A stretch of DNA of 40,847 bases, taken from UHGV virus genome UHGV-0390358; one strand, 5' to 3'. The stretch's first letter is position 1; each line of letters opens with the position of its first letter. The translations under genes were made by a program, and so were the position numbers. The notes beneath the pieces were generated by a model that did no database searches, was not told where the DNA came from, and saw only the letters and a list, made by a program, of their open reading frames with translations. Below are positions 1,627-25,034 of the stretch, in pieces. This DNA is from a virus.

Positions 1627-1824
1627 ATCATCCTCCCATACGGGAACAGACGTGACTTACATACGGTGTGATTTTGACTAGTTAACTTTCTGCAGCAAAA
1701 CCATCACGGTAACTACAAACTAAAATGTTACAAATCAACTTTCTTACCTTTGGGGTAATAGTACGCTATTCACCTGCAATCTGTACAGAATTATTTAAAG
1801 GCACATCCCTGTGCCGCCGTTCTG

Positions 1825-2511
1825 TCAGAAGACCCCTGCCTTGTCGTTGATGTATTCCGCGTGGGTCTGGATATCACGCAGGCATTTACTCACACCGACG
1901 ATGTAGCAGAACATGGTGGTCAGTTCCGCCGCCGCGCCCGATACGTCGTGCCCGTCTTCCTGTAACTGGTTCAGCAGATTCATCAGCAGTGAGTTCTCCG
2001 TCAGGCCGAGAACACCAGACGGCGAGTGAATCAAACTGCGGTAGCCGGGCTTCAGCGGGGCGCTGTAGGTGTTGTTCTCTATCTTCATTGCCTGCATCAC
2101 TGCTGACGCCGTGGCGTTGGCTACCTGGTCGGCAACCATCTTTATGCGTTCTTCCTGCGGGAGCGAGTTTTTAATGTAACTTCCGGTGCGGCGGATCTGA
2201 GGAAGAACCTCACCCGTAACCCATTTACGAAAGCGGTAGGGGATAGTGCCTGGTGTCACCGCATCGCGGCAGCGGAGGATCAGTGTGTAGAGGCCTGACT
2301 CGTTGATAATATTGGTTTCGCCTTGACGGCCTAAGTTAAATTTAGCCCTTTCATCATCATCAAGAGATTTTATTGACATAGTGGGGTTTGTCAGTTGAAG
2401 AGCTTTAATAACGTCTTTGGCAACAAACCAAGGATTTCCATCAATAACAATGGCTCGAATGGTTGCCTCTGATTCAAAATGAAAAACAGATGGGGTTACG
2501 TTAGCAGTCAT
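1825..2511 (-). CDS. Bro-N domain + KilA-C (phage antirepressor-type) domain protein
   Basis: N-terminal FHFESEATIRAIVIDGNPWFVAKDVIKAL matches the Bro-N signature; C-terminal domain is paralogous to the 3657..3914 protein; start taken at internal ATG 2511 (MTANV...) rather than the ORF-track start 2664. Confidence 0.65.
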   Translation of the reverse strand: MTANVTPSVFHFESEATIRAIVIDGNPWFVAKDVIKALQLTNPTMSIKSLDDDERAKFNLGRQGETNIINESGLYTLILRCRDAVTPGTIPYRFRKWVTGEVLPQIRRTGSYIKNSLPQEERIKMVADQVANATASAVMQAMKIENNTYSAPLKPGYRSLIHSPSGVLGLTENSLLMNLLNQLQEDGHDVSGAAAELTTMFCYIVGVSKCLRDIQTHAEYINDKAGVF

Positions 2512-2905
2512 AGTGATCACCTTTGTAGTTAGGTTAATCACCACTACCGACGCCAATCGGTTGGTGGTGAACTGTGCAGGGTTGGCGTAACCGGCTACAA
2601 AGGACCCGGCGCACCTTTCGGTGCCCCCACACAGCCCACCATAGAATAGGTGCGCTTTACACATAAAAAAACCGCTTATGCGGCATATGTGCCTCTGTAG
2701 TAACCCGGGACGCCAATCCCGGCACTGGATTTTGCCAGTGCCCGATTACTATGGCACAAGAGGAGTGCGATGTAAATTTACCGCAAAGGTAATGATAAGC
2801 GCGAAGAAATATTAAAATCAACCGTATTTGGTTGATTGCGTTTAACGCTTGATCACCTGAAAGCAAGATATTACCTTTAAGGTAATGTTATTGTGAGGAA
2901 AAGCA

Positions 2906-3634
2906 ATGGAAGTTTTCTGGATAGTTGTTGGTGTGGTTGCGGTGATTATTTACGTTATCAACCAGAACAAGACTAAGATCTCTGATCGTACGGTCGTTAA
3001 TCAGAACAAAACGATAAAGACCGAAGATGGGGAGGTAACGATTAGTCGTACACAGGTGATAGAACACACATCTACTCAGTTTCAAAAAACTGGAGGTAAC
3101 GCGCCTGATATTTCCGTACCTCCTGCTTATGATAGTGCGGTAATCCAGACATATTATAAACAGCAGGAGTTTGCAAAAGAGAGGCAACTGATTCAGCCAA
3201 AGCCGTTTACAGCTGAGCTTCCACCTGGAGTGTCAACGCGTCCGGCATATCATGGAAGATTCCCTGGTGATGACATATCGTCTCAGTCATCTAAAAAAGC
3301 ACCTCAGGCAGTATCAGAGCCAGCAAGAATACCTTCTGTATCGCCGCCAAAAGAAGAATCAGCTAACAGAGTTTCAAGTGGCCGCAAGCAGTGTTTGCGA
3401 TGCAGAATAAACCTTCCATATGACAAATTCCGGAAATCGTCAAAAAATCCAGATGGATTGACTAAGTGGTGTGCAAGGTGTCTCGATGGCCCAAAGAATA
3501 CACGCCATATGAAGTGGTGCCCAATTTGTAATGTCCGCAGAAAACGGACCAGCTTTTACCCTAATAATCAAAATGCGGACGGCTTAATGGCATGGTGCAA
3601 AACGTGCTGGGACGAGCACAAAGCGAAACGATAG
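2906..3634 (+). CDS. Membrane-anchored protein with two C-terminal CxxC...CxxC zinc-ribbon-like repeats, unknown function
   Basis: ATG at 2906 with GAGGA ribosome-binding site; N-terminal TM helix; repeats CLRC..DGLTKWCARC and CPIC..DGLMAWCKTC; operator palindrome 2871-2885 immediately upstream. Confidence 0.6.
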   Translation: MEVFWIVVGVVAVIIYVINQNKTKISDRTVVNQNKTIKTEDGEVTISRTQVIEHTSTQFQKTGGNAPDISVPPAYDSAVIQTYYKQQEFAKERQLIQPKPFTAELPPGVSTRPAYHGRFPGDDISSQSSKKAPQAVSEPARIPSVSPPKEESANRVSSGRKQCLRCRINLPYDKFRKSSKNPDGLTKWCARCLDGPKNTRHMKWCPICNVRRKRTSFYPNNQNADGLMAWCKTCWDEHKAKR

Positions 3635-3656
3635 GCCGCTCTTGCGGCCTTTAAAT

Positions 3657-3914
3657 TTACCGGGTTTGTTTTCGTAATTGTTCGGCACAATAGTCGAGAT
3701 GTGTTTGCAGATCCTGCATAGACATCTGTGAGCTGGTGACGTAGTTAATCAGTGCAGTCAGTTCGGCAAGTGGGCCATCGACATTAAATCCATCCTTATC
3801 GAGATCTCGGAGTAATTTCATCAAGTGCGATCCCTCCACCAGTGACCTGACGCCTCCCGGCGTGTGAATCCTTTCGGTAAATCCGTTTTCCAGTGGATAG
3901 TGATACTGCTGCAT
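3657..3914 (-). CDS. Stand-alone KilA-C-like small protein; candidate SOS-inducible antirepressor
   Basis: Paralogous to the C-terminus of the 1825..2511 protein (HTPGGVRSLVEGSHLMKLLRDL... versus HSPSGVLGLTENSLLMNLLNQL...); GGAG ribosome-binding site favours the ATG at 3914 over 3929; LexA box 6 bp upstream. Confidence 0.6.
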   Translation of the reverse strand: MQQYHYPLENGFTERIHTPGGVRSLVEGSHLMKLLRDLDKDGFNVDGPLAELTALINYVTSSQMSMQDLQTHLDYCAEQLRKQTR

Positions 3915-3934
3915 CTTAATCTTCTCCATGCAAT

Positions 3935-3954
3935 AACTGTATATTTATACAGTA
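3935..3954. promoter_or_regulatory. LexA (SOS) box
   Basis: AACTGTATATTTATACAGTA, CTGT-N8-ACAG with AT-rich spacer, 15 of 16 core positions matching the E. coli consensus; overlaps a TATAAA -10-like hexamer of the leftward promoter. Confidence 0.7.
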
Positions 3955-4110
3955 GCAAATAATTTGTTTGCTATCCAGCACGTTTTGCAAATTACCTGAA
4001 AGGTAATATCTATTCGTATTTACAGCCTTTCTATCCATATGTGGTTTTTCAGGTAATAGAATAACCAGATATGCGGCGCAACGGGTGCTGCGACTATCTG
4101 GAGATTTAAC

Positions 4111-7100
4111 ATGACGGTCTCAACCGAAGTTGACCACAACGAATACACCGGTAACGGCGTTACGACATCGTTTCCGTATACTTTTCGAATTTTCAGAAAA
4201 TCAGACCTGGTTGTTCAGGTGTCTGACCTGAACGGGAACGTAACAGAATTGGTTCTGGATACCGGTTATACGGTAACTGGGGCGGGCACTTATAGTGGCG
4301 GTTCTGTGGTTCTTCCGTCTCCGCTTGCTACTGGATGGCGAATTACGATAGATCGTGTGCTTGATGTAGTGCAGGAGACAGACCTTCGCAATCAGGGAAA
4401 ATTTTTCCCCGAAGTGCATGAAGATGCCTTTGACTACCTGACGATGCTGATCCAGCAATGTTTTGGGTGGTTCAGACGTGCATTGATGAAACCATCTTTG
4501 CTTGCAAAATATTACGATGCAAAGCAAAACAAAATTTCTAACCTTGCAGATCCATCATTTGAGCAGGACGCTGTAAATAATCGCTCAATGCGTAATTATG
4601 TCGATGCTGCAATCGCCGGGGTTGTTGGTGGTTTTGGTTGGTTTATTCAGTATGGTTCTGGGGCTGTGTACCGAACGTTCCAGGATAAAATGCGTGATGC
4701 TATTAGCCCCAAAGATTTTGGAGCTGTTGGTGATGGTATAAATGACGATTCCACTGCAATAAGCGCGTGCCTTGAAGCCTCATCTCCAGTTTATAAAATT
4801 GACGGATTAGGGCTTACTTTTAAAGTATCAACTCTTCCGGATGTCAGTCGATTTAAAAATGCTCGTTTTTTATTTGAGAGAATACCGGGTCAGCCTCTTT
4901 TTTATGCTTCTGAAGATTTTATCCAGGGAGAGTTATTTAAAATTACAGATACACCGTGGTACAACGCCTGGACGCAGGATAAAACGTTTGTATATGACAA
5001 TGTCATCTATGCGCCTTTTATGGCTGGAGACCGCCATGGTGTAAATAACCTCCATGTTGCATGGGTTCGCTCAGGAGATGACGGGAAGACCTGGACAACG
5101 CCGGAATGGCTTACAGATTTACATGAAAACTATCCCACAGTTAACTATCACTGCATGTGTATGGGGGTTGTCAGAAATCGCCTTTTTGCTGTAATTGAGA
5201 CGCGGACCGTGAGCGGAAATAAACTGCAGGTTGCAGAGTTGTGGGATCGCCCAATGAGTCGCAGCCTTCGCGTTTATGGTGGTATAACGAAAGCAGCAAA
5301 TCAGCAAGTCGCTTATATTCGCATTACTGATCACGGATTATTTGCTGGTGATTTTGTCAACTTCTCAAACTCTGGTGTTACAGGTGTTACCGGGAATATG
5401 ACGGTGACTACTGTTATTGATAAAAATACTTTTACAGTTACGACGCAAAATACCCAGGATGTGGATCAGAATAACGAGGGTAGATACTGGAGTTTTGGTA
5501 CATCATTTCACTCTTCACCATGGAGAAAAACCAGTCTTGGAACTATTCCTTCTTTTGTTGACGGAAGCACTCCTGTTACTGAGATTCACAGTTTTGCGAC
5601 GATTAGCGATAACAGTTTTGCTGTTGGCTACCATAATGGTGATATTGGTCCACGCGAGCTTGGGATACTCTATTTCTCTGATGCTTTCGGTTCTCCTGGT
5701 AGCTTTGTTCGCAGACGCATACCTGCAGAATATGAGGCGAATGCATCTGAGCCATGTGTAAAATATTATGATGGCATTCTGTATCTGACGACCAGGGGGA
5801 CATTAAGTACTCAACCCGGTAGTTCATTGCACAGAAGCTCTGATTTAGGTACATCATGGAATTCTCTTCGCTTCCCAAATAATGTTCATCACTCAAACCT
5901 TCCTTTTGCCAAAGTTGGCGATGAGCTGATTATTTTTGGCAGTGAGCGCGCATTTGGTGAGTGGGAAGGAGGAGAGCCTGATAACCGTTATGCAGGAAAT
6001 TATCCAAGAACATTTATGACCAGAGTTAACGTCAATGAGTGGAGTCTGGATAATGTAGAGTGGGTTAATGTTACTGATCAGATTTATCAGGGCGGAATAG
6101 TTAACTCTGCGGTTGGTGTTGGTTCAGTTTGTATCAAAGACAACTGGCTGTACTACATTTTCGGTGGGGAAGACTTTCTAAACCCATGGAGCATAGGGGA
6201 TAACAACAGAAAATATCCTTATGTTCACGATGGTCACCCGGCTGATTTGTATTGTTTCAGGGTGAAAATTAAACAGGAAGAATTTGTTTCAAGGGATTTT
6301 GTCTACGGAGCCACTCCTAACAGAACGCTTCCTACTTTTATGTCGACGTCAGGCGTGAGGACGGTTCCTGTACCCGTTGATTTCACAGATGATGTTGCCG
6401 TCCAGTCACTGACTGTCCATGCAGGTACATCAGGACAAGTTCGCGCGGAAGTCAAACTTGAGGGTAATTACGCCATTATTGCGAAGAAAGTACCGTCTGA
6501 TGATGTTACCGCTCAGAGATTAATCGTTAGCGGCGGTGAAACAACGTCTTCAGCAGATGGTGCAATGATAACGTTGCATGGTTCCGGAAGCAGTACTCCA
6601 CGTCGCGCGGTATATAACGCACTCGAACATCTTTTTGAGAACGGAGATGTTAAACCTTATCTTGATAATGTAAATGCTCTTGGTGGTCCGGGAAACAGGT
6701 TCTCGACAGTTTATCTTGGCTCCAATCCTGTGGTTACCAGTGACGGAACATTAAAGACAGAGCCGGTCTCTCCTGACGAAGCATTGCTGGATGCCTGGGG
6801 TGACGTCAGGTATATCGCTTATAAATGGCTGAACGCTGTCGCTATAAAGGGGGAAGAAGGGGCGAGGATACATCATGGTGTAATCGCGCAGCAACTTCGT
6901 GATGTTCTTATTTCTCACGGACTCATGGAAGAAGAAAGCACAACATGCCGCTATGCCTTTCTTTGCTATGACGATTATCCCGCAGTATATGATGACGTCA
7001 TTACTGGCCAAAGGGAAATGCCGCTGACTGATAATGACGGGAGCATCATTGTTGATGAGGATGATAATCCAGTGATGGTAATGGAAGACATCATTGAGCG

Positions 7101-7230
7101 CGTTGAAATAACGCCAGCAGGATCTAGATGGGGGGTCAGACCTGATCTCTTATTCTATATCGAGGCAGCATGGCAGCGCAGAGAAATGGATAAGATAAAA
7201 GAGCGGATTCAGTCTCTGGAAGAACGTTAA
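4111..7230 (+). CDS. Tailspike endosialidase (endo-N-acetylneuraminidase) with C-terminal intramolecular chaperone domain
   Basis: 1039 aa; conserved podovirus tailspike N-terminal head-binding region; sialidase Asp-boxes SGDDGKTW and SSDLGTSW; C-terminal HGVIAQQLRDV... autoproteolytic chaperone-type domain. Confidence 0.85.
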   Translation: MTVSTEVDHNEYTGNGVTTSFPYTFRIFRKSDLVVQVSDLNGNVTELVLDTGYTVTGAGTYSGGSVVLPSPLATGWRITIDRVLDVVQETDLRNQGKFFPEVHEDAFDYLTMLIQQCFGWFRRALMKPSLLAKYYDAKQNKISNLADPSFEQDAVNNRSMRNYVDAAIAGVVGGFGWFIQYGSGAVYRTFQDKMRDAISPKDFGAVGDGINDDSTAISACLEASSPVYKIDGLGLTFKVSTLPDVSRFKNARFLFERIPGQPLFYASEDFIQGELFKITDTPWYNAWTQDKTFVYDNVIYAPFMAGDRHGVNNLHVAWVRSGDDGKTWTTPEWLTDLHENYPTVNYHCMCMGVVRNRLFAVIETRTVSGNKLQVAELWDRPMSRSLRVYGGITKAANQQVAYIRITDHGLFAGDFVNFSNSGVTGVTGNMTVTTVIDKNTFTVTTQNTQDVDQNNEGRYWSFGTSFHSSPWRKTSLGTIPSFVDGSTPVTEIHSFATISDNSFAVGYHNGDIGPRELGILYFSDAFGSPGSFVRRRIPAEYEANASEPCVKYYDGILYLTTRGTLSTQPGSSLHRSSDLGTSWNSLRFPNNVHHSNLPFAKVGDELIIFGSERAFGEWEGGEPDNRYAGNYPRTFMTRVNVNEWSLDNVEWVNVTDQIYQGGIVNSAVGVGSVCIKDNWLYYIFGGEDFLNPWSIGDNNRKYPYVHDGHPADLYCFRVKIKQEEFVSRDFVYGATPNRTLPTFMSTSGVRTVPVPVDFTDDVAVQSLTVHAGTSGQVRAEVKLEGNYAIIAKKVPSDDVTAQRLIVSGGETTSSADGAMITLHGSGSSTPRRAVYNALEHLFENGDVKPYLDNVNALGGPGNRFSTVYLGSNPVVTSDGTLKTEPVSPDEALLDAWGDVRYIAYKWLNAVAIKGEEGARIHHGVIAQQLRDVLISHGLMEEESTTCRYAFLCYDDYPAVYDDVITGQREMPLTDNDGSIIVDEDDNPVMVMEDIIERVEITPAGSRWGVRPDLLFYIEAAWQRREMDKIKERIQSLEER

Positions 7231-7536
7231 AAAAAAGCCCGCAATATTTTGCGGGTATCAAAAACGGAGTTTGTGAAAAGTTATCTTTGAATTCTATCAT
7301 GAATCAGTACGTATTTTAAATACATGTTCAGGTTTATTACACCATAGCATTATTAAATACAAAATTAAGTCTATGGTTCCTGTACAACTGCCCCCACTCT
7401 GCTGGCTCGTTCTGTAAAATCATTAGTACTTTTATTGAGATATATGATATGGAACAATAATGATTCATATATGGTTTACTATGCGGGGTTAGTCATCAAT
7501 AATTGACTGGCTTATAGATAGTAAACAGGAGAAAGT

Positions 7537-9349: not shown

Positions 9350-9354
9350 TTTCC

Positions 9355-9616
9355 GGTGACGGTATATGAAACGGTACGGGAAAAGTTGAGGCTTGGAAAA
9401 GTGTTATCACTCAATTGGTTATGGTTGTCGTAAATAATCGAGTGGGAATGATTAACAGCTAACTCATAGCAACTCATTCCTATTCAGATACCAATTTAAC
9501 CCTCTGTTTTTACAGAGGGTTTTTGTTTTTATGTATTCATTTCTATTCACTCTACACCATATTTTTCGTCGGTACAGGTGACGGTATTACCTTAAAGGTA
9601 TACTCTCATACCGTCA
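9355..9616. repeat. Candidate attP arm region: GGTGACGGTAT repeats upstream of the integrase gene
   Basis: GGTGACGGTAT at 9355-9365 and 9577-9587 (direct), inverted copy ATACCGTCA at 9608-9616; core site not identified. Confidence 0.3.
9499..9530 (+). terminator. Rho-independent terminator downstream of lysis cassette
   Basis: ACCCTCTG-ttttta-CAGAGGGT followed by TTTTTGTTTTT. Confidence 0.6.
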
Positions 9617-9643
9617 TGAAAATGGTTTCTATACGGGTGAATT

Positions 9644-10894
9644 GTGCTTACCGATACAAAATTAAAAAACCTCAAGCCGCAGGACAAACTGTACAAGGTC
9701 TCCGATCGTGACGGGCTGTATGTAGCTGTGCTTACGTCAGGCACGGTCTCGTTTCGCTATGACTACCGTATCAACGGTCGCCGCGAAACACTGGTAATCG
9801 GGCAGTATGGGCGTGACGGTATCAGCCTGGCAGAAGCGCGAGAAGAACTGATTGCTGCAAAGAAGCTGCTTAAAGCAGGCCAGTCACCGGCTGCGGCTAA
9901 ACGTGACGGTATCAAAAAGATTCGTGGTGCCGAGACGTTTGCGGTACATACCGACAGTTATATGAAACACGTCATCCTGGCTGACAGTACCCGCGCAATG
10001 AAACAGGCGGTGATCGACCGTGACATACTTCCGGTTCTTGGCAATAAAATGATGGCTGAAATTACCACATCGATGGTTCGTGATTTGTGTGACCGGATTG
10101 TCGAACGCGGTGGCCGGGCAACAGCAGTACAGGCCAGGGAGATCATCAGCAGCGTATACCGTCACGCCAATGACCGTGGTCATGGTTTGTTTAATCCTGC
10201 GGCTGACATTAAACCTTCGTCTATCGCCATATTTAAACCACGAGAGCGAACACTGACACCAGAAGAAATTGGCCTGTTCTTCCGCACGCTGGATGCCATT
10301 GGTGCTATGGGCACTATGAAAATGGCTTTAAAGCTGGTGCTTATCACTATGGTTCGTAAAGGCGAATTCACCAATGCAACGTGGGATGAAATAGATTTTA
10401 AAAAATGGACATGGACAATTCCTTCAGACCGCATGAAGGGAAGCCGGGCGCACGTTATTTACCTGCCTAAACAGGCACAGGATATATTGGTTGGGTTGCA
10501 GATGTGCGCTGGTGGAAGTGAATATCTGGTTCCTGGTCGTTACAATTTCCGGAAGCCATTATCTAATGCCGCGCTGAACTCTCTGATCGACAGAACGGTG
10601 AAAATAATAAATGAAGATGGTGAGCATATTCAGGACTTCACCGTACACGATATGCGCCGTACAGCCAGTACGTTGTTGCATGAGGCTGGTTATCCTTCAG
10701 ACTGGATTGAAAAGGCTCTGGCACATGAGCAGAAAGGTGTGCGCGCCGTATATAACAAAGCGGAATACGCCAGACAGCGCGCCTACATGTTGCAGCAGTG
10801 GGCCGATATGATTGATTCCTGGATTAACGGGGAGCATACGGATCTGATTCCGTTCTCCCCGTCGAAGTTTGAGAAGTGGATGGCGGGGGAATAA
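9644..10894 (+). CDS. int: Tyrosine site-specific integrase
   Basis: GTG start at 9644; N-terminal LTDTKLKNLKP...YRINGRRETLVIG arm-binding-type domain; C-terminal catalytic region HDMRRTASTLL...AVYNKAEY. Confidence 0.85.
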   Translation: MLTDTKLKNLKPQDKLYKVSDRDGLYVAVLTSGTVSFRYDYRINGRRETLVIGQYGRDGISLAEAREELIAAKKLLKAGQSPAAAKRDGIKKIRGAETFAVHTDSYMKHVILADSTRAMKQAVIDRDILPVLGNKMMAEITTSMVRDLCDRIVERGGRATAVQAREIISSVYRHANDRGHGLFNPAADIKPSSIAIFKPRERTLTPEEIGLFFRTLDAIGAMGTMKMALKLVLITMVRKGEFTNATWDEIDFKKWTWTIPSDRMKGSRAHVIYLPKQAQDILVGLQMCAGGSEYLVPGRYNFRKPLSNAALNSLIDRTVKIINEDGEHIQDFTVHDMRRTASTLLHEAGYPSDWIEKALAHEQKGVRAVYNKAEYARQRAYMLQQWADMIDSWINGEHTDLIPFSPSKFEKWMAGE

Positions 10895-14840: not shown

Positions 14841-14917
14841 TTACCGTTAAGGTAATAATTATGCTTATTTGGTTTGGTGTCAATAGATATGAGTTAAAAA
14901 AATTACCCGTAAGGTAA
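14841..14917. promoter_or_regulatory. Leftward early promoter region with two TTACC-N5-GGTAA operator palindromes
   Basis: TTACCgttaaGGTAA at 14841-14855 and TTACCcgtaaGGTAA at 14903-14917, between repressor terminator and first leftward gene. Confidence 0.55.
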
Positions 14918-14974: not shown

Positions 14975-15559
14975 TTATTGTTTGCTTTTTTCGTTCTGGT
15001 TGATGACAAATTCAATGTAACTTTCGATCTTTGCTTTCTCGGTTTCGGGTAACAATGCGTAGCGTGAGCGGTCATAGTTGATAGTCGCAGGGTCGTGCGG
15101 GTGAATCAGTAGTTCATATCCGTGACGCCCGAATGCGGATGCAACATTCTCCAGGGTGGAAATGGAAACGCTGACCTCATTGTTTAACAGGCGGCTGATT
15201 GTCACCTGGGCGACGCCGGATGCGCGGTGAAGTTTTCCCTGTGTTGAAAGGTCGCGGCTTTCGCTCATCCAGCGTTCCAGGTTGTGAGCCGCCAGCTGAC
15301 CTATATCGCTCGGGCCGACAGGCTGAAAACCCTCCTGAGAAAGCGAACGATCAATATCAAGCCAGTTACGGGGTTTATTGGCGGCAGCTTCAATTTTTCG
15401 TGCAACCTGGTCGCCGATAACCTTCTTGCCAAGAGCCCAGCGGTTTACCAGATTTGCCTGAGTTCCAAGTTTTTCTGCCATCCGCGTCTGAACACCATTG
15501 AATTCACGGTCGATCAAGTCGTTGAGATTTTGCCTGCGGACGTCCTGGATACTTTTCAT
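14975..15559 (-). CDS. Prophage repressor with two tandem XRE-type HTH domains and no peptidase S24 autocleavage domain
   Basis: 194 aa; HTH-like segments QTRMAEKLGTQANLVNRWALGK and VAQVTISRLLNNEVSVSISTLENVASAFG; divergent from Cro-like gene across an operator-containing region. Confidence 0.7.
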   Translation of the reverse strand: MKSIQDVRRQNLNDLIDREFNGVQTRMAEKLGTQANLVNRWALGKKVIGDQVARKIEAAANKPRNWLDIDRSLSQEGFQPVGPSDIGQLAAHNLERWMSESRDLSTQGKLHRASGVAQVTISRLLNNEVSVSISTLENVASAFGRHGYELLIHPHDPATINYDRSRYALLPETEKAKIESYIEFVINQNEKSKQ

Positions 15560-15614: not shown

Positions 15615-15677
15615 TTACCCAACAGGTAAATGCACCTCATAGGTAACTATCCTTGATTTTTGTTACCTTATGGGTGA
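15615..15677. promoter_or_regulatory. Divergent immunity-region operators (three TTACC-N5-GGTAA-type sites)
   Basis: TTACCcaacaGGTAA 15615-15629; gCACCtcataGGTAA 15632-15646; TTACCttatgGGTgA 15663-15677 overlapping a TTGTTA-N17-TATTAT promoter candidate for the Cro-like gene. Confidence 0.6.
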
Positions 15678-15713
15678 ATATTTATTATCTGAAATAAATA
15701 TCAGGCAATAGCT

Positions 15714-15944
15714 ATGAGCGATAACGGACATTTCGATTTCAAAAAGCACTGGCTTGCACTTACTCCGGATGAGCGTGAAGCCTTCGCACAGGAAGCCGGA
15801 ACGACGAGTCACTATATCCAGACTCACTTAACAGGCAAGCGCAAAATGCCAGGTAAAGTATTGATGAATGGGCTTTTTAAAGCCTGTAAAACAAGACAAT
15901 GGCTGCGCTCAAAAGCAGAACTGGCATACTTCTTCTACTCATGA
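15714..15944 (+). CDS. Cro-like small HTH regulator
   Basis: 76 aa, divergent from repressor; HTH-like EREAFAQEAGTTSHYIQTHLTGKRKM. Confidence 0.5.
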   Translation: MSDNGHFDFKKHWLALTPDEREAFAQEAGTTSHYIQTHLTGKRKMPGKVLMNGLFKACKTRQWLRSKAELAYFFYS

Positions 15945-15965
15945 TATCCAGCTACAACCCTCTGT

Positions 15966-15990
15966 AGACCGCCACCCGGCGGTCTTTTCA
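15966..15990 (+). terminator. Rho-independent terminator after Cro-like gene
   Basis: GACCGCC-accc-GGCGGTC followed by TTTTCA. Confidence 0.55.
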
Positions 15991-16092
15991 TATCTATTCG
16001 TACCTCAAAGGTAATAAAAAACCAAATCTGGTTGATCAAATTTTCCAATTGTGCAAAATAGCCAATATCAATAACAAAAAGGGGCGGAAAAA

Positions 16093-17870: not shown

Positions 17871-17987
17871 TACCAGCGCGATAGCGCATTTTTTTACGCC
17901 TCAATAATTACCTATAAGGTAACAAAATATTCTAAGCTCTATTGATTTCGTGTCTTATGTGGTTTTTAATTACCTTAGAGGTAAATC

Positions 17988-18335: not shown

Positions 18336-18396
18336 ATCGACGATCTTTTTAGTTATCAATGTAATCAATAAGTTATGTGGATAAGCGAGGGTAAAG

Positions 18397-19490: not shown

Positions 19491-19491
19491 T

Positions 19492-20670
19492 ATGACCACT
19501 TTTACCGACAAAGAACTGATTAAAGAAATCAAAGAGCGCATCAGCAGCCTGGACGTGCGAGACAATATTGAGCGCCGTGCTTATGAAATTGCTCTGGCAT
19601 CGCTGGAAGCAGAACCGGTGGCGTGGGAATGCGGTGAAAACATAATTTTGTTTAACCCTGACACAGTTGAAGCATACGCAAAACGTGCGGAGATAACACC
19701 TAAGCCACTATTCTCCGCGCCGCCAGCGCCGATGGCTGCGCCGGAGAAATGCCCGGCAGAAATTCGAGAGCTGATGTCGTCGCATTCTGACGATCTCTTC
19801 AACGATGAAGACGCTCAGGAGATTTGGAACACCTGCCGCGCCGCTATGCTTCAGTCCGGAAACTTTCGGGAAAACAAGAATTCGTCAACCAATAATTTTC
19901 GAGAAATCGCGGAAACGTCAACCAACTATCCGGCAATTCCTAGTGAGGTGTTGTCCGCAATCCTGAAGGTTGCCAGGATTCGTGCCGATTTCGATGATTT
20001 TGACGGTGACAGGCGAGGTATCGGTGATTGTCTGGATGAGGCTGAGCAAGAGCTTATCGTTACCATTAACAAATATGCCAGTCAGTTGGCAGTAGTACCT
20101 GTTGGGCTTGATGAACGTGCAGCTTTCAATGCCTGGAATAACGACGAGAACCTCCCCATAGCTGGTGTTGGCGCAAAAAACGCTGCCTGGTTAGCCTGGC
20201 AAGCCCGCGCTGAGTTGGGTCGCTCGTTAGCCGTAAACTCTCCGGTAATTCCGGATGGTTTATCCACGGTATGCGCTGAGGCTTATCAGGTTGTAGGAGT
20301 TATGGCAGATGCGCTTGGTGTATTCGGTGATGCAGCAGTACAGAAAGTTCTGGATAACCTGTCACAGCAAAAACTTGTTCACAGAGATGTGCTGCCGTTC
20401 TCGCTTCCGGTAACTCCGGATGGTTGGGTTATAGTGCCGAAGAAACTAACCGCTGAGAACGGCGCTAAGGGTGTGCTATCCGGTGAATTTTCAGAAACTA
20501 CGTTTATAAGCTGCCCGGAATGCTTTGGCGATGATGATTGCGATACCTGTGACGGGAGCGGACGAATTGAAATTAAAGTACCAGTCACGTGGACGACCAT
20601 AAAATCCATCTGGGATAAAGGTATTGCGCATTTTGCAGCAAAACCGCCGCAGGAGGTTAACCGTGGCTAA
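19492..20670 (+). CDS. Hypothetical protein with C-terminal DnaJ-type CxxCxGxG zinc-finger motif
   Basis: 392 aa; C-terminal CPECFGDDDCDTCDGSG. Confidence 0.45.
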   Translation: MTTFTDKELIKEIKERISSLDVRDNIERRAYEIALASLEAEPVAWECGENIILFNPDTVEAYAKRAEITPKPLFSAPPAPMAAPEKCPAEIRELMSSHSDDLFNDEDAQEIWNTCRAAMLQSGNFRENKNSSTNNFREIAETSTNYPAIPSEVLSAILKVARIRADFDDFDGDRRGIGDCLDEAEQELIVTINKYASQLAVVPVGLDERAAFNAWNNDENLPIAGVGAKNAAWLAWQARAELGRSLAVNSPVIPDGLSTVCAEAYQVVGVMADALGVFGDAAVQKVLDNLSQQKLVHRDVLPFSLPVTPDGWVIVPKKLTAENGAKGVLSGEFSETTFISCPECFGDDDCDTCDGSGRIEIKVPVTWTTIKSIWDKGIAHFAAKPPQEVNRG

Positions 20671-20944
20671 CCTGCAACTTGCCGTCAAAGGTGAATACTT
20701 CGATGCCATGATTCGCGGGGAGAAAACGGAAGAGTATCGCCTGTGTAATGACTACTGGAAAAAGCGCCTCGTTAACCGTAAGCATGACCGCCTGATTATC
20801 ACAAAGGGATATCCGAAGCGCGACGATTCCAGCCGCAGAATAGACGTCCCGTATGAAGGGTATGAAATCAAGACAATCACACATCCGCACTTCGGCGATA
20901 AACCGGTAAAGGTGTTCGCGATAAAGGTAAATATTGATGGCTAA
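20663..20944 (+). CDS. Small protein, possibly ASCH/PUA-like fold
   Basis: GTG start overlapping previous stop; ...YFDAMIRGEKTEEYRL...; weak assignment. Confidence 0.35.
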   Translation: MANLQLAVKGEYFDAMIRGEKTEEYRLCNDYWKKRLVNRKHDRLIITKGYPKRDDSSRRIDVPYEGYEIKTITHPHFGDKPVKVFAIKVNIDG

Positions 20945-21275
20945 ATCAGCAGCAGAGCGCAAAGCCGCTCAGAGAGCCAGACAAGCTGCATCTGGTGTGC
21001 GTAAACTGGAGATTGTGCTTGATGCTCAGGAAATTGAAATGCTGGAGCGTAACTGTGCCACGCGTCGCCCCGGGCGTGCGCCTTACGAATTTGGTGAGTA
21101 TATAGCGTTACTGATCCGCCAGGATGATGCACGCGTGCGCGGGCGTATAAAATCGATCAGCAGAAAACGTTGCGGTAAGTGCGGCGAGAGAGTTCCAGTT
21201 AATTCATGCCCGTGTAATGGTGACTCGCAATGCTGGGTGACTAAAGGCTGGCATGAAACGAAATTAATAGTGTGA
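20937..21275 (+). CDS. Hypothetical protein with C-terminal Cys cluster
   Basis: ATG at 20937; C-terminal CGKCGERVPVNSCPCNGDSQC; stop lies inside the GTGACATGTCAC palindrome. Confidence 0.4.
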   Translation: MAKSAAERKAAQRARQAASGVRKLEIVLDAQEIEMLERNCATRRPGRAPYEFGEYIALLIRQDDARVRGRIKSISRKRCGKCGERVPVNSCPCNGDSQCWVTKGWHETKLIV

Positions 21276-21323
21276 CATGTCACGAGTAGATTATGCATGA
21301 TGAATTTGATGGTTTTGAATACT

Positions 21324-21349
21324 GCCGCCAACTATGGCGGCTTTATTTT
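21324..21349 (+). terminator. Rho-independent terminator between early-right genes and terminase operon
   Basis: GCCGCC-aactat-GGCGGC followed by TTTATTTT. Confidence 0.5.
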
Positions 21350-21392
21350 GCATGGTACTATTACCACAACGGTAACTATTACCACGGTGGTT

Positions 21393-21989
21393 ATGATGCC
21401 TGCTGAACCTAAAACCTATAAACGCAAATCAACGCAATTTAAGCCACTAACAGCAATGCAGGAGGCTTATTGCCAGTCATACATCAAAACGCCTGAAAAC
21501 CAGACTCAGGCAGCGATTAATGCAGGATTCTCCCCAAATACAGCGGCAGTTAAAGCCAGTGTCATGATGCGCGATGAACGCATTCAAAAACGGATTGCCG
21601 AGTTGATGGAGGAGCGCAACAAACGAATGCGCGTCAGTGCTGATTACGTTCTCATGCGCCTGGTGGAGATCGACCAGATGGACGTGATCGACATCCTCAA
21701 CGACGATGGGAGCCTTAAACCAATCCGTGAGTGGCCGAAAATCTGGCGCACTACGCTTAGTGGCTTTGATCTGTCATCGATCATCATGAACATGAACGAG
21801 GATTCGATAGAGACAATCCTCAAAAAAATTAAATGGCCTGACAAGGTGAAGAACCTTGAGCTGATTGGTAAGCATGTTGATGTCAACGCGTTCAAAGAAC
21901 GTCTGGATGTTAATGTGAATGTGACAATTGCTGATCGCATAGCAGCAGCCAGGAAGCGACTCAAAGAACGTCAGGATGGTAATCAGTGA
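21393..21989 (+). CDS. Terminase small subunit
   Basis: HTH-like ...QAAINAGFSPNTAAVKASVMMRDERIQKRIAEL; immediately upstream of and overlapping TerL; start taken at internal ATG 21393. Confidence 0.6.
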   Translation: MMPAEPKTYKRKSTQFKPLTAMQEAYCQSYIKTPENQTQAAINAGFSPNTAAVKASVMMRDERIQKRIAELMEERNKRMRVSADYVLMRLVEIDQMDVIDILNDDGSLKPIREWPKIWRTTLSGFDLSSIIMNMNEDSIETILKKIKWPDKVKNLELIGKHVDVNAFKERLDVNVNVTIADRIAAARKRLKERQDGNQ

Positions 21990-23455
21990 CAGATACATCG
22001 TTATCTCCTGAAGAGCAGTTGATCGAGGATATTGCAGGGTTCACTCACGATCCGCTTGGCTATGCCCTCTATGCGTTCCCGTGGGGGGAAGAGGGGACTG
22101 AACTGGCACATGCCACCGGCCCACGTCAATGGCAGGCTGATGCGTTCCGAGAGATACGTGATCACCTGCAGAATCCAGAGACGCGCTATCAGCCGCTTAT
22201 GCTGGCACGCGCTTCTGGTCACGGTATTGGTAAATCCGCATTTATCTCAATGCTGATCAACTGGGGCATGTCCACTTGCGAGGATTGTAAGGTCGTGGTG
22301 ACCGCCAACACCGACAACCAGCTACGAACGAAGACCTGGCCGGAAATTATCAAGTGGTCGAACCTTGCTATCACGAAAGACTGGTTTACCTGTACCGCTA
22401 CCGCGATGTACAGCAATGACCCTGGGCACGACAAGCGGTGGCGAGCTGACGCAATCCCTTGGTCTGAGCACAACACTGAGGCATTCGCCGGACTACACAA
22501 CGAGCGCAAACGCATCATCGTGGTATTCGATGAAGCGTCGAACATTGCGGATCTGGTGTGGGAAGTTGCCGAGGGTGCGCTAACGGACGAAGACACTGAG
22601 ATTATCTGGGTGGCGTTCGGAAACCCGACGCGTAATACCGGACGTTTCCGCGAATGTTTCCGCAAATATAAACACCGCTGGAAAACTGCGCAGATTGACA
22701 GCCGGACGGTGGAAGGCACCAACAAACAGCAGTTGCAGAAATGGGTTGATGACTACGGGGAAGACAGCGACTTCGTTAAAATCCGTGTGCGTGGAATATT
22801 CCCTGATGCATCTGAATTGCAGTTTATCCCTACCGGTCTTACTGACGAGGCAATGAAACGGGTGGTAACCGCTGCGCAGGTTGCACATGCTCCGGTGATA
22901 ATTGGCGTTGACCCGGCATACTCCGGCGTTGATGACGCTGTGATATACCTGCGGCAGGGGCTACACAGTAAGGTGCTGTGGACTGGCAACAAGACCACTG
23001 ACGATCTGATAATGGCGAAGCGTATCGCTGACTTTGAAGACCAGTACCAGGCTGACGCAGTGTTCATCGACTTCGGTTACGGAACTGGTCTGAAGTCAAT
23101 CGGTGACGGCTGGGGTCGTACATGGCAACTTGTTCCGTTTGGTGGCGCGTCTACTGACCCGCAGATGCTCAACAAGCGTGGGGAGATGTTCAACTCATGC
23201 AAGACATGGCTGAGGCTGGGCGGCATGCTTGATGACCAGGAAACAGCGGACGACCTGTCGGCGGCAGAGTACAAAGTTCGAGTGGACGGTAAAATCGTTA
23301 TCGAACCGAAGGAAGATATCAAGGAGCGGCTTGGGCGTTCTCCTGGTAAAGGCGATGCGCTACTGCTGACGTTTGCGTTCCCGGTAGCCAAGAAAACTAA
23401 TGACCCACGGCAGCAGCAGGGCAGGGCTATAACAGACTATGACCCATTTGAATGA
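21986..23455 (+). CDS. Terminase large subunit
   Basis: GTG start overlapping TerS stop; Walker A-like ARASGHGIGKSAF and Walker B-like IIVVFDEAS; 489 aa. Confidence 0.85.
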   Translation: MTDTSLSPEEQLIEDIAGFTHDPLGYALYAFPWGEEGTELAHATGPRQWQADAFREIRDHLQNPETRYQPLMLARASGHGIGKSAFISMLINWGMSTCEDCKVVVTANTDNQLRTKTWPEIIKWSNLAITKDWFTCTATAMYSNDPGHDKRWRADAIPWSEHNTEAFAGLHNERKRIIVVFDEASNIADLVWEVAEGALTDEDTEIIWVAFGNPTRNTGRFRECFRKYKHRWKTAQIDSRTVEGTNKQQLQKWVDDYGEDSDFVKIRVRGIFPDASELQFIPTGLTDEAMKRVVTAAQVAHAPVIIGVDPAYSGVDDAVIYLRQGLHSKVLWTGNKTTDDLIMAKRIADFEDQYQADAVFIDFGYGTGLKSIGDGWGRTWQLVPFGGASTDPQMLNKRGEMFNSCKTWLRLGGMLDDQETADDLSAAEYKVRVDGKIVIEPKEDIKERLGRSPGKGDALLLTFAFPVAKKTNDPRQQQGRAITDYDPFE

Positions 23456-23458
23456 TTT

Positions 23459-24283
23459 TTACTTTTGTGTTTTTGATTTTCTTTGATAGGTGGAATTTAA
23501 ATCACCATTTATATTTACTAGAGGATTATTCAATAATGTACTGATTTCTGGATTGTTAATTCCAGTAACGCCAAGTTTCTTTACGGACTCATTAAAGTCT
23601 TGTAATGATTTTAGACCTACAAGCCCATTAGCAATTGTATTATTTGTTGCCAAAGGAATGTTTTTCTTATAGGACTCATATTCGTTTTTTAAATTTTTGT
23701 GAGTTTTTTCTAGATTTTCTAGTTTAGATGTTGTTTCATCAATAACCTTAGATAATTCTAAAATACGAGCTTGTGCTGCGCGCAGTTCTGTCTCCCTCTC
23801 TTTCAATTCAGATGTGAGTTGTCCCATTCTGTCTTTTGAAAGAATTATTTCCTCTTTCATGTCTTGAATGTTTTTTTCAGCGCCTGTTTTTACTTTTTCG
23901 TAAGTAATGTCTTTTTTAGCCAGCAATCTCTGTAGCCGTGTTTCACGTTGTATTTTTCTTGCCTTCCGGTGGTTTTCGATTGAGTCATTATTATCAAGAG
24001 GTTTTGCTTGCCATACGTTAATGATATTGTTTACCCATGGTAATAGGCAGCAGATAGTAATTACAGATAAGCATGGATAAAACATAACAGTTTTCCATGT
24101 GCTGTTATCTGAGATGTATGAAATTTTATCTATTATATTTGATTTGCTAAAAAACAGATAAAGAAGTGATTTCCAGTTGAAGGCGCACCAGGACATAACA
24201 AAAGCACCAAGCACAGGGTTTTTAGCTCGATGCACGGCAGTATTGGCAGTAGATAAAAACAGCTCTTTGAACGATTCGAACAT
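23459..24283 (-). CDS. AT-rich accessory protein: N-terminal membrane segments + long coiled-coil; unknown function
   Basis: Opposite strand to flanking late genes; AT-rich composition unlike neighbours; consensus TATAAT -10 at 24309-24314 overlapping an operator palindrome; in-frame alternative starts at 24307 and 24337. Confidence 0.5.
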   Translation of the reverse strand: MFESFKELFLSTANTAVHRAKNPVLGAFVMSWCAFNWKSLLYLFFSKSNIIDKISYISDNSTWKTVMFYPCLSVITICCLLPWVNNIINVWQAKPLDNNDSIENHRKARKIQRETRLQRLLAKKDITYEKVKTGAEKNIQDMKEEIILSKDRMGQLTSELKERETELRAAQARILELSKVIDETTSKLENLEKTHKNLKNEYESYKKNIPLATNNTIANGLVGLKSLQDFNESVKKLGVTGINNPEISTLLNNPLVNINGDLNSTYQRKSKTQK

Positions 24284-24342
24284 ACTAATTACCTTAAAGT
24301 TTTTCATGATTATACCTTTAAGGTAATTTGTGGTCATCAGGC

Positions 24343-24367
24343 AAAAAAAATGCCCGGCGAACCGGGC
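24343..24367 (-). terminator. Rho-independent terminator downstream of the tRNA
   Basis: Minus strand GCCCGG-ttcg-CCGGGC followed by a run of 8 T. Confidence 0.45.
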
Positions 24368-24530
24368 GAACTGGAAGCAATGAGTTATGCCTTCCGTGGC
24401 TGTACGGGTTTACAGCATGAAGTCATCGCAATGGCGTCCTGCTGTAAAAAGGGCGGTGATAGGCCTTCAAGGGAAACCATCACCGCCAAGCCCCTGGAAC
24501 TTCTGGCATCACGGTCCTCAGGCGTGATTC

Positions 24531-24607
24531 TGGCGTGGCATGCAGGATTCGAACCTGCGACCAACCGCTTAGAAGGCGGTTGCTCTGTCCAACTGAGCTA
24601 ATGCCAC
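24531..24607 (-). tRNA. tRNA-Arg (anticodon UCU)
   Basis: Reverse complement folds as a 77-nt cloverleaf: 7-bp acceptor stem GTGGCAT/ATGCCAC, D-arm GCTC..GAGC, anticodon loop CTTCTAA, T-arm GCAGG-TTCGAAT-CCTGC, 3' CCA; differs from E. coli argU in the acceptor stem. Confidence 0.9.
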
Positions 24608-25034
24608 AACGCTGAGAGCACTTAGCCTGTTAAGGCGCCACACTTTGTCTCGGCTCCATAAATGCTCTCATCGTTGTACCCTCGTCTCTTCCGAGGCGTC
24701 ACACCGAATCGCCGGGATGGTGAATCCCCGTGCGCGGAATAAAACCGCTCGACTTGCACATTCCGGCTACCTGGTTCGTTTGCCCGAGCAAGGGAGGGTG
24801 CCCCTTAAACGTATCCAGACCGCTATCGGCGCATGTGCCATACGCCGTACTGCTCAAAATAAAAGCTCACTCCACCTGTTCAATTTAACGACAAGCCAGT
24901 CAGGTTAGTAACCGGAATGAACTCTTTGGTTACCTGAAAGGTAATAATTTGTGCGTTAAATGTCAACTATCTACGATAAATAAATCATATGTGGTTAAAT
25001 TGGTAATAATTTAATTGCGTACGGAGTCATTGAT

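What the first reader, a model, noticed from the sequence alone, without database searches (positions are those of the whole stretch)
1744..24944. Dispersed family of at least 14 TTACC-N5-GGTAA palindromes confined to intergenic regulatory regions
Perfect or near-perfect copies occur at 1744-1758, 2778-2792, 2871-2885, 3992-4006, 14841-14855, 14903-14917, 15615-15629, 15632-15646, 15663-15677, 16000-16014, 17908-17922, 17970-17984, 21361-21375, 24312-24326 and 24930-24944 (a weaker copy at 9587-9601 overlaps the attP-like repeats). None was seen inside the long structural genes. Five of them flank the repressor/Cro pair, so this is most simply the prophage repressor operator; the rest sit in front of the tailspike, terminase, portal operon and accessory genes. 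One repressor holding many separate promoters is the stoperator/P1-type strategy, not the lambda one. In several copies the right half-site AAGGTAA also serves as or abuts the ribosome-binding site, and in the 24312 copy it overlaps a consensus TATAAT.
Basis: seen in the sequence. Interest (0 to 1): 0.8.

Follow-up and report, generated by a model that had tools for sequence, protein, structure and literature searches.

The report
Known repressor operators of epsilon15-like phage
The repeated TTACC-N5-GGTAA palindromes are real. They are almost certainly the binding sites of this phage's lysogeny repressor, but the same sites are already annotated in the related Salmonella phage epsilon15, so the finding is correct and ordinary.

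Summary
There are 11 perfect and 5 one-mismatch TTACC-N5-GGTAA sites (0.00 and 0.67 expected from shuffles). All 16 lie in the roughly 10% of the window that is non-coding (p about 1e-16).

The window is a complete Uetakevirus genome (epsilon15/phiV10 type, closest to vB_EcoP_ZX5). Its 194-aa repressor is a full-length homologue of the Salmonella phage SPC32H repressor Rep (PDB 5D50). The 90-aa gene at 3657-3929 is the SPC32H antirepressor Ant, and a near-consensus LexA box sits in front of it.

The epsilon15 GenBank record already marks seven ATTACC-N5-GGTAAT sites as 'repressor / lysogeny'. They sit before the small terminase gene (terS), the portal operon and the tailspike gene, beside the repressor gene, and before the RuvC gene, which are the same places as here. 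Eight relatives from Escherichia, Salmonella, Klebsiella, Enterobacter and Serratia keep the half-sites unchanged at these places while the spacers vary.

The sites overlap or bracket conserved promoters, two of them with a fixed 62-bp operator pair. One site controls an isrK/C4-RNA plus antirepressor operon like the P1 immI region.

Binding itself was not testable here. Novelty: already known. Interest: low.

The parts
1744..1758 (.). Operator, perfect (TTACCTTTGGGGTAA). It lies between the 3' end of the Bro-N::Ant gene and the 72-aa leftward gene at 1408-1626. On the minus strand a TACTAT -10-like hexamer is fused to it.
   Evidence: The context and promoter reading are my own, from the sequence.
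2778..2792 (.). Operator, perfect. It starts at the last base of the -10 of the leftward promoter-like site TTGATT(2821)-18-TATCAT(2792), which drives isrK, C4 and the Bro-N::Ant gene.
   Evidence: ZX5 has the identical site at 2043.
2871..2885 (.). Operator, perfect. It lies 93 bp from the 2778 site and 21 bp upstream of the ATG of the 242-aa gene at 2906-3634 (phrog_6762, zinc-finger / endonuclease VII-like).
3992..4006 (.). Operator, perfect, in the divergent region between ant and the tailspike gene. It lies 38 bp from the LexA box and abuts the palindromic hexamer TTGCAA.
   Evidence: It is invariant in 6 relatives (A8). The syntenic epsilon15 site 19895-19911 is annotated 'repressor'.
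9587..9601 (.). Weak site with one mismatch (GGTAT), about 45 bp upstream of int. Integrase arm-type repeats TGACGGTAT / ATACCGTCA flank it. Whether the repressor binds it is uncertain.
   Evidence: The same one-mismatch site is conserved in epsilon15, SPC32H, ZX5, Tyrion and BUCT711.
14841..14855 (.). Downstream operator of the PL pair, perfect. The last base of the PL -10 hexamer (14855) is the outermost T of the operator.
   Evidence: Footprint alignment A3.
14903..14917 (.). Upstream operator of the PL pair, perfect. It lies 19 nt upstream of the PL -35, 62 bp centre to centre from 14841, and just after the rep terminator.
14855..14883 (-). PL promoter, TTGACA-17-AATTAT. The -35 and -10 are invariant in 7 relatives.
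14975..15559 (-). rep: a 194-aa repressor homologous to SPC32H Rep (PDB 5D50_A). It has an N-terminal DNA-binding HTH with an invariant N-L/V-V/I-N/S-R-W helix, a second HTH_3-like domain, and no S24 protease domain.
15615..15629 (.). OR site nearest rep, perfect. It overlaps the putative leftward rep promoter (TTTACC-17-TTAAAT, my reading).
   Evidence: A4. The promoter assignment is inferred.
15632..15646 (.). Degenerate middle OR site with two mismatches (GCACC...GGTAA), 17 bp from 15615.
   Evidence: It is syntenic to perfect sites in epsilon15 (33358) and BUCT711 (A4).
15663..15677 (.). OR site over the -35 and spacer of PR, with one mismatch (GGTGA). The mismatch is conserved in Tyrion and L089.
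15660..15688 (+). PR promoter-like site, TTGTTA-17-TATTAT, in front of the Cro-like gene at 15714-15944.
   Evidence: (phrog_35).
16000..16014 (.). Operator with one mismatch (GTACC, conserved in ZX5 and Tyrion). It lies 15 bp after the cro terminator (15966-15985) and 17 bp upstream of TTGATC (16032).
17908..17922 (.). Upstream operator of the pair at the promoter in front of the DUF1064 gene (called P3 in this report), perfect. It follows a small conserved terminator and lies 19 nt upstream of the -35.
   Evidence: A5.
17970..17984 (.). Downstream operator of the P3 pair, perfect. It is fused to the -10 (TTTAAT, 17965-17970) and contains the GAGG Shine-Dalgarno sequence of the DUF1064 gene (17988). 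It lies 62 bp from 17908.
   Evidence: A5..
21361..21375 (.). terS operator, perfect. It lies 20 bp after the terminator at 21324-21341. An extended -10-like TGgTACTAT is fused to it.
   Evidence: A6. The epsilon15 site 12-27 is annotated 'repressor'. The -10 reading is inferred.
21379..21393 (.). Second terS site, with one mismatch, 18 bp from 21361. It overlaps the terS Shine-Dalgarno sequence and start codon (ATG 21396).
24312..24326 (.). Operator with one mismatch, in the spacer and -10 of the leftward promoter-like site ATGACC(24337)-17-TATAAT(24309). That promoter drives a gene of about 275-292 aa (phrog_4780).
24930..24944 (.). Operator, perfect, upstream of the gp3/portal structural operon. 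A conserved 60-bp block follows it.
   Evidence: A7. The epsilon15 site 2931-2947 is annotated 'repressor'.
3657..3929 (-). ant: a small antirepressor, about 88% identical to SPC32H Ant (PDB 5D50_E).
3935..3954 (.). LexA box AACTGTATATTTATACAGTA, 2 mismatches from the consensus, immediately upstream of ant.
   Evidence: It is conserved in 6 relatives.
1825..2664 (-). Second antirepressor candidate: a Bro-N domain fused to an Ant-like C-terminal domain (residues 199-274). The true start is probably downstream of the C4 RNA.
2560..2741 (-). isrK-like sRNA (2741-2665) and C4 antisense RNA (2646-2560), transcribed from the operator-controlled promoter ahead of the Bro-N::Ant gene.
   Evidence: 79.5 and 74.7 bits, full-length matches.

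Best explanation
The palindromes are the operators of the phage's lysogeny repressor Rep (14975-15559), an SPC32H/epsilon15-type repressor that is not expected to cleave itself.

In the prophage, Rep binds the 17-bp consensus aTTACCy-N3-rGGTAAt through its N-terminal helix-turn-helix domain. Each transcription unit has its own operator or operators at its promoter:
- PL and PR around rep.
- The unit after cro (replication genes), and the unit that starts at the promoter in front of the DUF1064 gene (called P3 here).
- terS/terL, the portal/structural operon, and the ant/tailspike divergent region.
- The isrK-C4-Bro::Ant operon and two accessory genes.

The sites occur in three geometries:
- An operator fused to the last base of the -10 hexamer, so that it covers the transcription start: PL, P3, terS, 2778 and 1744.
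- An operator in the promoter spacer: PR, 24312 and 3992.
- An upstream partner 62 bp away, about six helical turns, at PL and P3. This would let a Rep tetramer, which carries two DNA-binding pairs, hold both sites and clamp the promoter between them.

Several units begin with a terminator followed directly by an operator and promoter. Each unit is therefore insulated from read-through and gated separately.

Induction is expected to work as in SPC32H. DNA damage removes LexA from the box at 3935-3954, Ant is made, it binds Rep's C-terminal domain, and Rep leaves all the operators at once.

Shown here: the motif statistics, the placement of the sites, their conservation, and the homologies. Inferred: which protein binds, the promoter assignments, the looping, and the induction route.
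For: - Enrichment and confinement to non-coding DNA.
- The epsilon15 GenBank record annotates the same palindrome as 'repressor / lysogeny' at 7 syntenic places.
- Rep is a homologue of PDB 5D50_A (E = 3.5e-42) and Ant of 5D50_E (E = 8e-47). There is a LexA box in front of ant and no S24 protease domain in Rep.
- SPC32H Rep binds palindromic DNA as a tetramer (PMC9638917). Its C-terminal domain has a tetramerisation fold that PMC9986798 links to DNA looping.
- Eight relatives from five host genera, with Rep as low as 43% identical, keep TTACC/GGTAA at the same places while spacers and flanks drift. Alignments A3-A8 show that only the half-sites, the -35/-10 elements and the terminators are invariant.
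- Rep's putative recognition helix N-L/V-V/I-N/S-R-W is conserved in 16 diverse homologues, which fits one shared operator.
- The 62-bp pair spacing recurs in 13 of the 14 pairs I tabulated from the site coordinates.
- The half-sites never show compensatory changes among 60 distinct site sequences. That points to sequence-specific protein recognition rather than an RNA hairpin.
- Overexpressing the 99.5%-identical ZX5 Rep lowers holin and endolysin mRNA by more than 99.9% (PMC9782041).
Against: - No binding, footprint or transcription-start data exist for this phage, and none could be produced here.
- The primary papers were not in the library: Kropinski 2007, Kim & Ryu 2013 and Kim 2016. I could not check which sites were tested experimentally.
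- Several promoter assignments rest on weak sigma-70 matches. No convincing -35 was found for the terS, portal or tailspike units, so some sites may act from upstream of an activator-dependent promoter rather than by occluding it.
- The Cro-like protein may use the same sites.
- No Rep variant with a changed operator was found. The link between protein and site therefore rests on co-occurrence and annotation, not on covariation.
- The ZX5 transcript drop could be indirect.
Confidence: 0.85

Rival explanations
1. The sites outside the immunity region belong mainly to another regulator rather than to Rep. Candidates are the Cro-like protein (15714-15944) or a late-gene regulator such as the PerC-like or AlpA-like proteins of the PL operon.
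For: - Cro and CI share operators in lambdoid phages (established knowledge).
- The late units lack clear -35 elements and carry a second conserved motif, CATATGTGGTT, which suggests an extra factor.
Against: - The late-region sites have the same sequence as the OL and OR sites that overlap PL and PR.
- The epsilon15 annotation assigns them to the repressor.
- A different regulator would be expected to have its own motif. The second motif fits that role better.
Confidence: 0.07
2. Some sites act as transcription roadblocks, working like stoperators rather than at initiation. Rep bound just after a terminator or over a ribosome-binding site would stop polymerases that read through from upstream units.
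For: - Operators lie 15-20 bp after terminators at 16000, 17908 and 21361.
- No strong sigma-70 promoter was found at terS or the portal operon.
Against: - The sites are palindromic and none lies inside a gene.
- Conserved -35/-10 elements lie next to most of them.
- Stoperators are asymmetric and depend on orientation (from my own knowledge of phages L5 and Bxb1).
Confidence: 0.05
3. The palindromes work as RNA hairpins (for terminator, processing or translational control), or as sites for DNA modification, restriction or recombination, and are not repressor targets.
For: - Three copies overlap ribosome-binding sites.
- One weak copy (9587) lies among integrase arm-type repeats.
Against: - The stem would be only 5 bp. 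The arms never show compensatory changes across 60 distinct copies, while the loop varies freely.
- The sites occur upstream of transcription starts and in both gene orientations.
- They are absent from the 90% of the genome that is coding, which does not fit a modification or restriction target.
Confidence: 0.03

Closest known systems
Repressor operators of Salmonella phages epsilon15 and SPC32H (genus Uetakevirus), with the Rep-Ant-LexA switch (GenBank AY150271.2 annotation; PDB 5D50/5D4Z)
   Same: - The same 17-bp palindrome, ATTACC-N5-GGTAAT.
- The same syntenic positions: the OL pair 62 bp apart, the OR triplet, the pair before the DUF1064/RuvC gene, terS, the portal operon, ant/tailspike and attP.
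- Homologous Rep and Ant, and a LexA box before ant.
   Different: - Rep is only about 43% identical overall (N-terminal domain 54%, C-terminal domain 40%).
- This phage has no recognisable site before the lysis cassette, whereas epsilon15 has one at 24704.
- It has extra sites at accessory genes (1744, 2778, 2871, 24312).
- It carries a second, Bro-N-fused Ant-like protein behind isrK and C4 RNAs.
Phage P1 C1 repressor with dispersed operators and the immI (c4-icd-ant) operon
   Same: One repressor holds many separate operons around the genome. These include an antirepressor operon that begins with a C4 antisense RNA.
   Different: - C1 operators are asymmetric 17-mers (ATTGCTCTAATAAATTT), and none is present here.
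- Rep belongs to a different repressor family from C1 (that C1 is unrelated is from my own knowledge, and no C1 comparison was run).
- P1 late operons are controlled indirectly through the late activator Lpa (my own knowledge). Here the structural operons carry operators themselves.
Lambda CI/Cro with OL and OR
   Same: PL and PR flank the repressor gene. Three sites of graded quality lie between divergent rep and cro. Operators overlap the -35, -10 or transcription start.
   Different: - Operators also lie outside the immunity region.
- Rep has no S24 autocleavage domain.
- Rep is a tetramer that an antirepressor disassembles.
Mycobacteriophage L5/Bxb1 stoperators and Streptomyces phiC31 conserved inverted repeats (from my own knowledge; not tested here)
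   Same: Many copies of one repressor site are spread over the genome. The phiC31 repeats are also 17-bp palindromes in intergenic regions.
   Different: Stoperators are asymmetric, lie inside transcription units and block elongation in one orientation. The sites here are palindromic and sit at promoters. The repressor families are unrelated.

Membership tests
Uetakevirus (epsilon15/SPC32H-type) Rep operator set | A 17-bp palindrome, ATTACC-N5-GGTAAT, over-represented in the genome | tested here: met
   The sequences of the annotated epsilon15 sites match it.
Uetakevirus (epsilon15/SPC32H-type) Rep operator set | A cognate Rep homologue (N-terminal HTH, middle and C-terminal oligomerisation domains, no S24 protease) flanked by the sites | tested here: met
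   (5D50_A, E = 3.5e-42, residues 1-190). (no Peptidase_S24 hit). Sites lie on both sides of the gene.
Uetakevirus (epsilon15/SPC32H-type) Rep operator set | Sites at the syntenic positions annotated in epsilon15: terS, portal operon, tailspike, OL, and before the RuvC/DUF1064 gene | tested here: met
   Alignments A3-A8.
Uetakevirus (epsilon15/SPC32H-type) Rep operator set | A LexA-controlled small antirepressor Ant | tested here: met
   (5D50_E, E = 8e-47). (LexA box at 3935-3954, 2 mismatches from the 20-bp consensus).
Uetakevirus (epsilon15/SPC32H-type) Rep operator set | Rep physically binds the sites and represses the adjacent promoters | not testable with these tools
   Only indirect evidence is available: the ZX5 overexpression data (PMC9782041) and statements about SPC32H Rep binding palindromic DNA (PMC9638917).
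Mycobacteriophage stoperators | Asymmetric sites in a fixed orientation relative to transcription, located within transcription units and genes | tested here: not met
   The sites are perfect palindromes, and 0 of 16 lie in coding sequence.
P1 C1 operator / immI system | The asymmetric 17-bp C1 operator, ATTGCTCTAATAAATTT | tested here: not met
   No match at up to 3 mismatches.
P1 C1 operator / immI system | An antirepressor operon that starts with a C4 antisense RNA and is controlled by the main repressor's operator | tested here: met
   C4 (79.5 bits) and isrK (74.7 bits) lie between operator 2778 with its promoter and the Bro-N::Ant gene. That Rep controls this promoter is inferred.
Lambda-type CI operators | A repressor with a RecA-stimulated S24 autocleavage domain, and operators confined to OL and OR | tested here: not met
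   No S24 domain. Ten or more sites lie outside the immunity region.

The most novel reading that the evidence does not exclude
The whole Rep family may share one invariant operator. This covers Uetakevirus-type prophages of Escherichia, Salmonella, Klebsiella, Enterobacter, Citrobacter and Serratia, with Rep identity as low as 43%. Divergence is greater in the C-terminal domain that binds Ant and forms the tetramer.

If so, these phages would all be immune to one another at the DNA level. They would differ in which antirepressor can induce them, rather than in repressor-operator pairing, which is the reverse of the lambdoid pattern.

In addition, the strictly conserved 62-bp operator pairs could mean that a single Rep tetramer closes a six-turn micro-loop around PL and P3. 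The lone operators at the late operons could be bridged over long distances.
Probability: 0.3. Interest if true: 0.45.

Novelty: already known. Interest (0 to 1): 0.2.

Why it matters
It gives a correct regulatory map for a very common E. coli prophage type. The rep gene is found in 557 of 5,426 complete E. coli genomes. The map shows which promoters the repressor is expected to silence, including the antirepressor operons and the tailspike gene.

It adds no new principle, because the operator family and the Rep-Ant switch are already described for epsilon15 and SPC32H. Three modest points could be followed up:
- The operator appears to be the same across the whole repressor family.
- The 62-bp pair geometry is fixed.
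- There is a P1 immI-like RNA/antirepressor module under the same operator.

Tried and rejected
Literature. I tried to read the primary papers, but none is held in the library: Kropinski 2007 (PMC2698709 and its DOI), Kim & Ryu 2013 (PMC3807360) and Kim 2016 (PMC4983836). Full-text searches for epsilon15, SPC32H, operators and the motif found no paper that states the operator sequence.

Covariation between the Rep recognition helix and the operator.
- The scan of viral contigs returned only 99-100% identical E. coli copies among the 80 loci kept.
- The diverse homologues I fetched (L087-L089, with helix variants NLVSRW and NLISRW) all still use TTACC-N5-GGTAA. No specificity switch was found, so the test gives no information on which protein binds.
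- The distant Pseudomonas phage PseuP_224 cI, which has a related N-terminal domain with helix NYISRC, shows no such motif: 0 perfect sites and 1 one-mismatch site in 31.7 kb. This serves only as an unrelated-genome control.

Gene map. A greedy ORF-based map overcalled genes, so I replaced it with a curated one. The ORFs at 2657-2866 and 24350-24601 were dropped as spurious because they overlap the isrK RNA and the tRNA-Arg gene.

Promoters. I could not assign convincing sigma-70 promoters to the terS, portal and tailspike units.

Co-residence. I considered using co-residence of two rep copies in one genome as a test of shared immunity. At most 12 of the 557 genomes hold two copies, but competition for the same attachment site confounds the count.

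Full report
**Observation**

TTACC-N5-GGTAA occurs 11 times without mismatch, where dinucleotide-preserving shuffles give none. It occurs 16 times at up to one mismatch against 0.67 expected.
- 15632 carries two mismatches.
- 9587, 15663, 16000 and 24312 carry one mismatch each.
- A further one-mismatch copy at 21379-21393 was missed.

With a curated gene map, all 16 sites lie in the 10.1% of the window that is non-coding (binomial p about 1e-16). The 29 two-mismatch matches fall 26:3 coding to intergenic, which is the background ratio. An unbiased count of all short palindromes finds no other enriched family. It refines the consensus to aTTACCy-N3-rGGTAAt.

**What the window is**

The window is a complete, permuted genome of a Uetakevirus, the epsilon15/phiV10 group. 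The closest records are vB_EcoP_ZX5, HEMP4, TL-2011b and phiV10, at 95-98% identity over the shared parts. It has an intact attP core at 9437-9453.

The 194-aa protein at 14975-15559 is 99.5% identical to the repressors of phiV10 and ZX5. It is a full-length homologue of the SPC32H repressor Rep, PDB 5D50_A (E = 3.5e-42). It has an N-terminal helix-turn-helix domain and a second HTH_3-like domain, and no S24 protease domain.

The 90-aa gene at 3657-3929 is the SPC32H antirepressor Ant (5D50_E, E = 8e-47). A LexA box two mismatches from the 20-bp consensus lies directly upstream of it, at 3935-3954.

**Already known**

The GenBank record of epsilon15 (AY150271.2) carries seven protein_bind features labelled 'repressor / lysogeny'. 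They lie before terS, before the gp3/portal operon, before the tailspike gene, three downstream of the repressor gene, and one before the RuvC gene. Their sequences are ATTACC-N5-GGTAAT, the same motif. So both the motif and its interpretation as dispersed repressor operators are on public record for this genus.

The Rep-Ant system has solved structures. According to later papers, Rep binds palindromic DNA as a tetramer whose DNA-binding pairs come from different dimers (PMC9638917). Its C-terminal domain has a tetramerisation fold that PMC9986798 links to DNA looping. That paper also notes that the mechanism of repression has not been characterised in detail.

For ZX5, overexpressing the repressor abolished free phage and cut holin and endolysin mRNA by more than 99.9% (PMC9782041). 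I could not open the three primary papers. I therefore cannot say which individual sites have been tested by binding assays.

**Comparative evidence**

Eight relatives keep perfect TTACC/GGTAA half-sites at the same syntenic places while the 5-bp spacers and the flanks drift:
- epsilon15, SPC32H and ZX5;
- Klebsiella phage BUCT711 and Enterobacter phage Tyrion;
- three prophages that carry Rep variants 54-58% identical to this one, including one from Serratia.

I aligned six intergenic regions across these genomes: PL (A3), OR (A4), the promoter before the DUF1064/RuvC gene, called P3 here (A5), terS (A6), portal (A7) and ant/tailspike (A8). Invariant columns are essentially confined to the operator half-sites, the -35 and -10 hexamers, small terminators and the LexA box.

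Even the mismatches of the weaker sites are conserved: GGTGA at PR, GTACC after cro, and GGTAT at attP. This suggests that the sites are graded in affinity on purpose.

Rep's N-terminal domain is somewhat more conserved than its C-terminal domain (mean pairwise identity 66% against 55%). The helix N-L/V-V/I-N/S-R-W is conserved in all 16 homologues aligned. I found no family member with a different operator. The protein-site link therefore rests on co-occurrence, position and annotation, not on covariation.

**How it most likely works**

PL is TTGACA-17-AATTAT on the minus strand. The last base of its -10 is the outermost T of operator 14841-14855. A second operator, 14903-14917, lies 19 nt upstream of the -35, 62 bp centre to centre from the first.

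The P3 promoter has exactly the same build: 17908 and 17970, with TTGATT-17-TTTAAT between them. By my tabulation of the site coordinates, the 62-bp spacing recurs in 13 of 14 such pairs across relatives. The spacing is about six helical turns, and a Rep tetramer carries two DNA-binding pairs. I therefore infer cooperative binding that clamps the promoter between the two sites. This is not shown.

Fusion of the -10 hexamer to the operator recurs at three more sites:
- terS: TGgTACTAT|TACC.
- 2778: TATCAT|TACC.
- 1744: TACTAT|TACC.

At PR, at 24312 (ATGACC-17-TATAAT) and at 3992, the operator lies in the spacer or over the -35.

Several units start with a terminator followed within 15-20 bp by an operator. 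Each unit is thus insulated from upstream read-through and gated separately.

Induction is expected to follow the SPC32H route, from LexA to Ant to removal of Rep. This is inferred from homology.

**A P1-like module**

Rfam finds a full-length isrK-like sRNA (2741-2665) and a C4 antisense RNA (2646-2560) on the minus strand. They lie between the promoter and operator at 2778-2821 and the 279-aa gene at 1825-2664.

That gene encodes a Bro-N domain fused to a second Ant-like domain. This is the logic of the P1 immI region, where a repressor operator controls a c4-antirepressor operon.

The stoperator comparison fails. The sites are palindromic, sit at promoters, and none is inside a gene.

**Rivals**

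- Exclusive use of the sites by Cro or by a late regulator is unlikely, because the late-region sites are identical in sequence to those overlapping PL and PR.
- A roadblock role for some sites cannot be excluded. I found no convincing sigma-70 -35 for the terS, portal or tailspike units.
- RNA-hairpin or modification-site readings are disfavoured. The arms are invariant with no compensatory changes, and the motif is absent from coding DNA.

**Verdict**

The feature is a known property of this phage genus, which is itself common: the rep gene is present in 557 of 5,426 complete E. coli genomes. Interest is low.

The most novel reading still open has two parts. The entire Rep family may share one operator and diversify in the Ant-binding domain instead. 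And the fixed 62-bp pairs may reflect micro-looping by a tetramer.

Noticed in passing
window 4036-4046, 7466-7476, 17954-17964, 24986-24996; L001 2988, 24751, 35953; L005 4025, 21438, 26455: A second dispersed motif, CATATGTGGTT (0-1 mismatch), lies on the + strand upstream of the tailspike gene, the lysis cassette, the DUF1064 unit and the portal operon. It is found at the same places in epsilon15 and Tyrion. At the portal and tailspike units it is part of a roughly 30-60-bp block that is almost invariant across four host genera (...CATATGTGGTT-N5-GGTAATAnnnT...). It may be a late-promoter element for an unknown activator.
   Followed up: partly
window 2560-2646 and 2665-2741, minus strand: Full-length Rfam matches to C4 antisense RNA (79.5 bits) and isrK sRNA (74.7 bits) lie directly upstream of the Bro-N antirepressor gene. 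This is an immI-like module as in P1/P7 and Gifsy-1. The 69-aa ORF at 2657-2866 that covers this stretch is probably spurious.
   Followed up: partly
window 1825-2664 (-) and 3657-3929 (-): The phage has two Ant-type domains. One is the small LexA-controlled Ant, about 88% identical to SPC32H Ant even though the Rep C-terminal domain it should bind is only about 40% identical. The other is more divergent and fused to a Bro-N domain. Which of the two is the cognate inducer of this Rep is unclear.
   Followed up: partly
window 24531-24607, minus strand: A tRNA-Arg (anticodon UCU) gene lies between the terminase and portal regions, as in SPC32H. It overlaps the 83-aa ORF at 24350-24601, which is therefore doubtful.
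   Followed up: no
window 9351-9365, 9573-9589, 9608-9616, 9812-9824, 9898-9914: Five copies of the integrase arm-type repeat (G)TGACGGTAT lie around attP and inside the 5' end of int. Two of them bracket the weak operator-like site at 9587. The repeat's GGTAT resembles an operator half-site.
   Followed up: partly
window 38538-40847 continuing at 1-about 130: The gp18-like virion gene of about 824 aa runs across the ends of the window, so the window is a permuted complete genome. The minus-strand ORFs listed at 38378-40223 are probably spurious.
   Followed up: partly
E. coli genome collection: The rep gene is present in 557 of 5,426 complete E. coli genomes, almost always as a single copy (569 places in all), so this prophage type is very common.
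   Followed up: no
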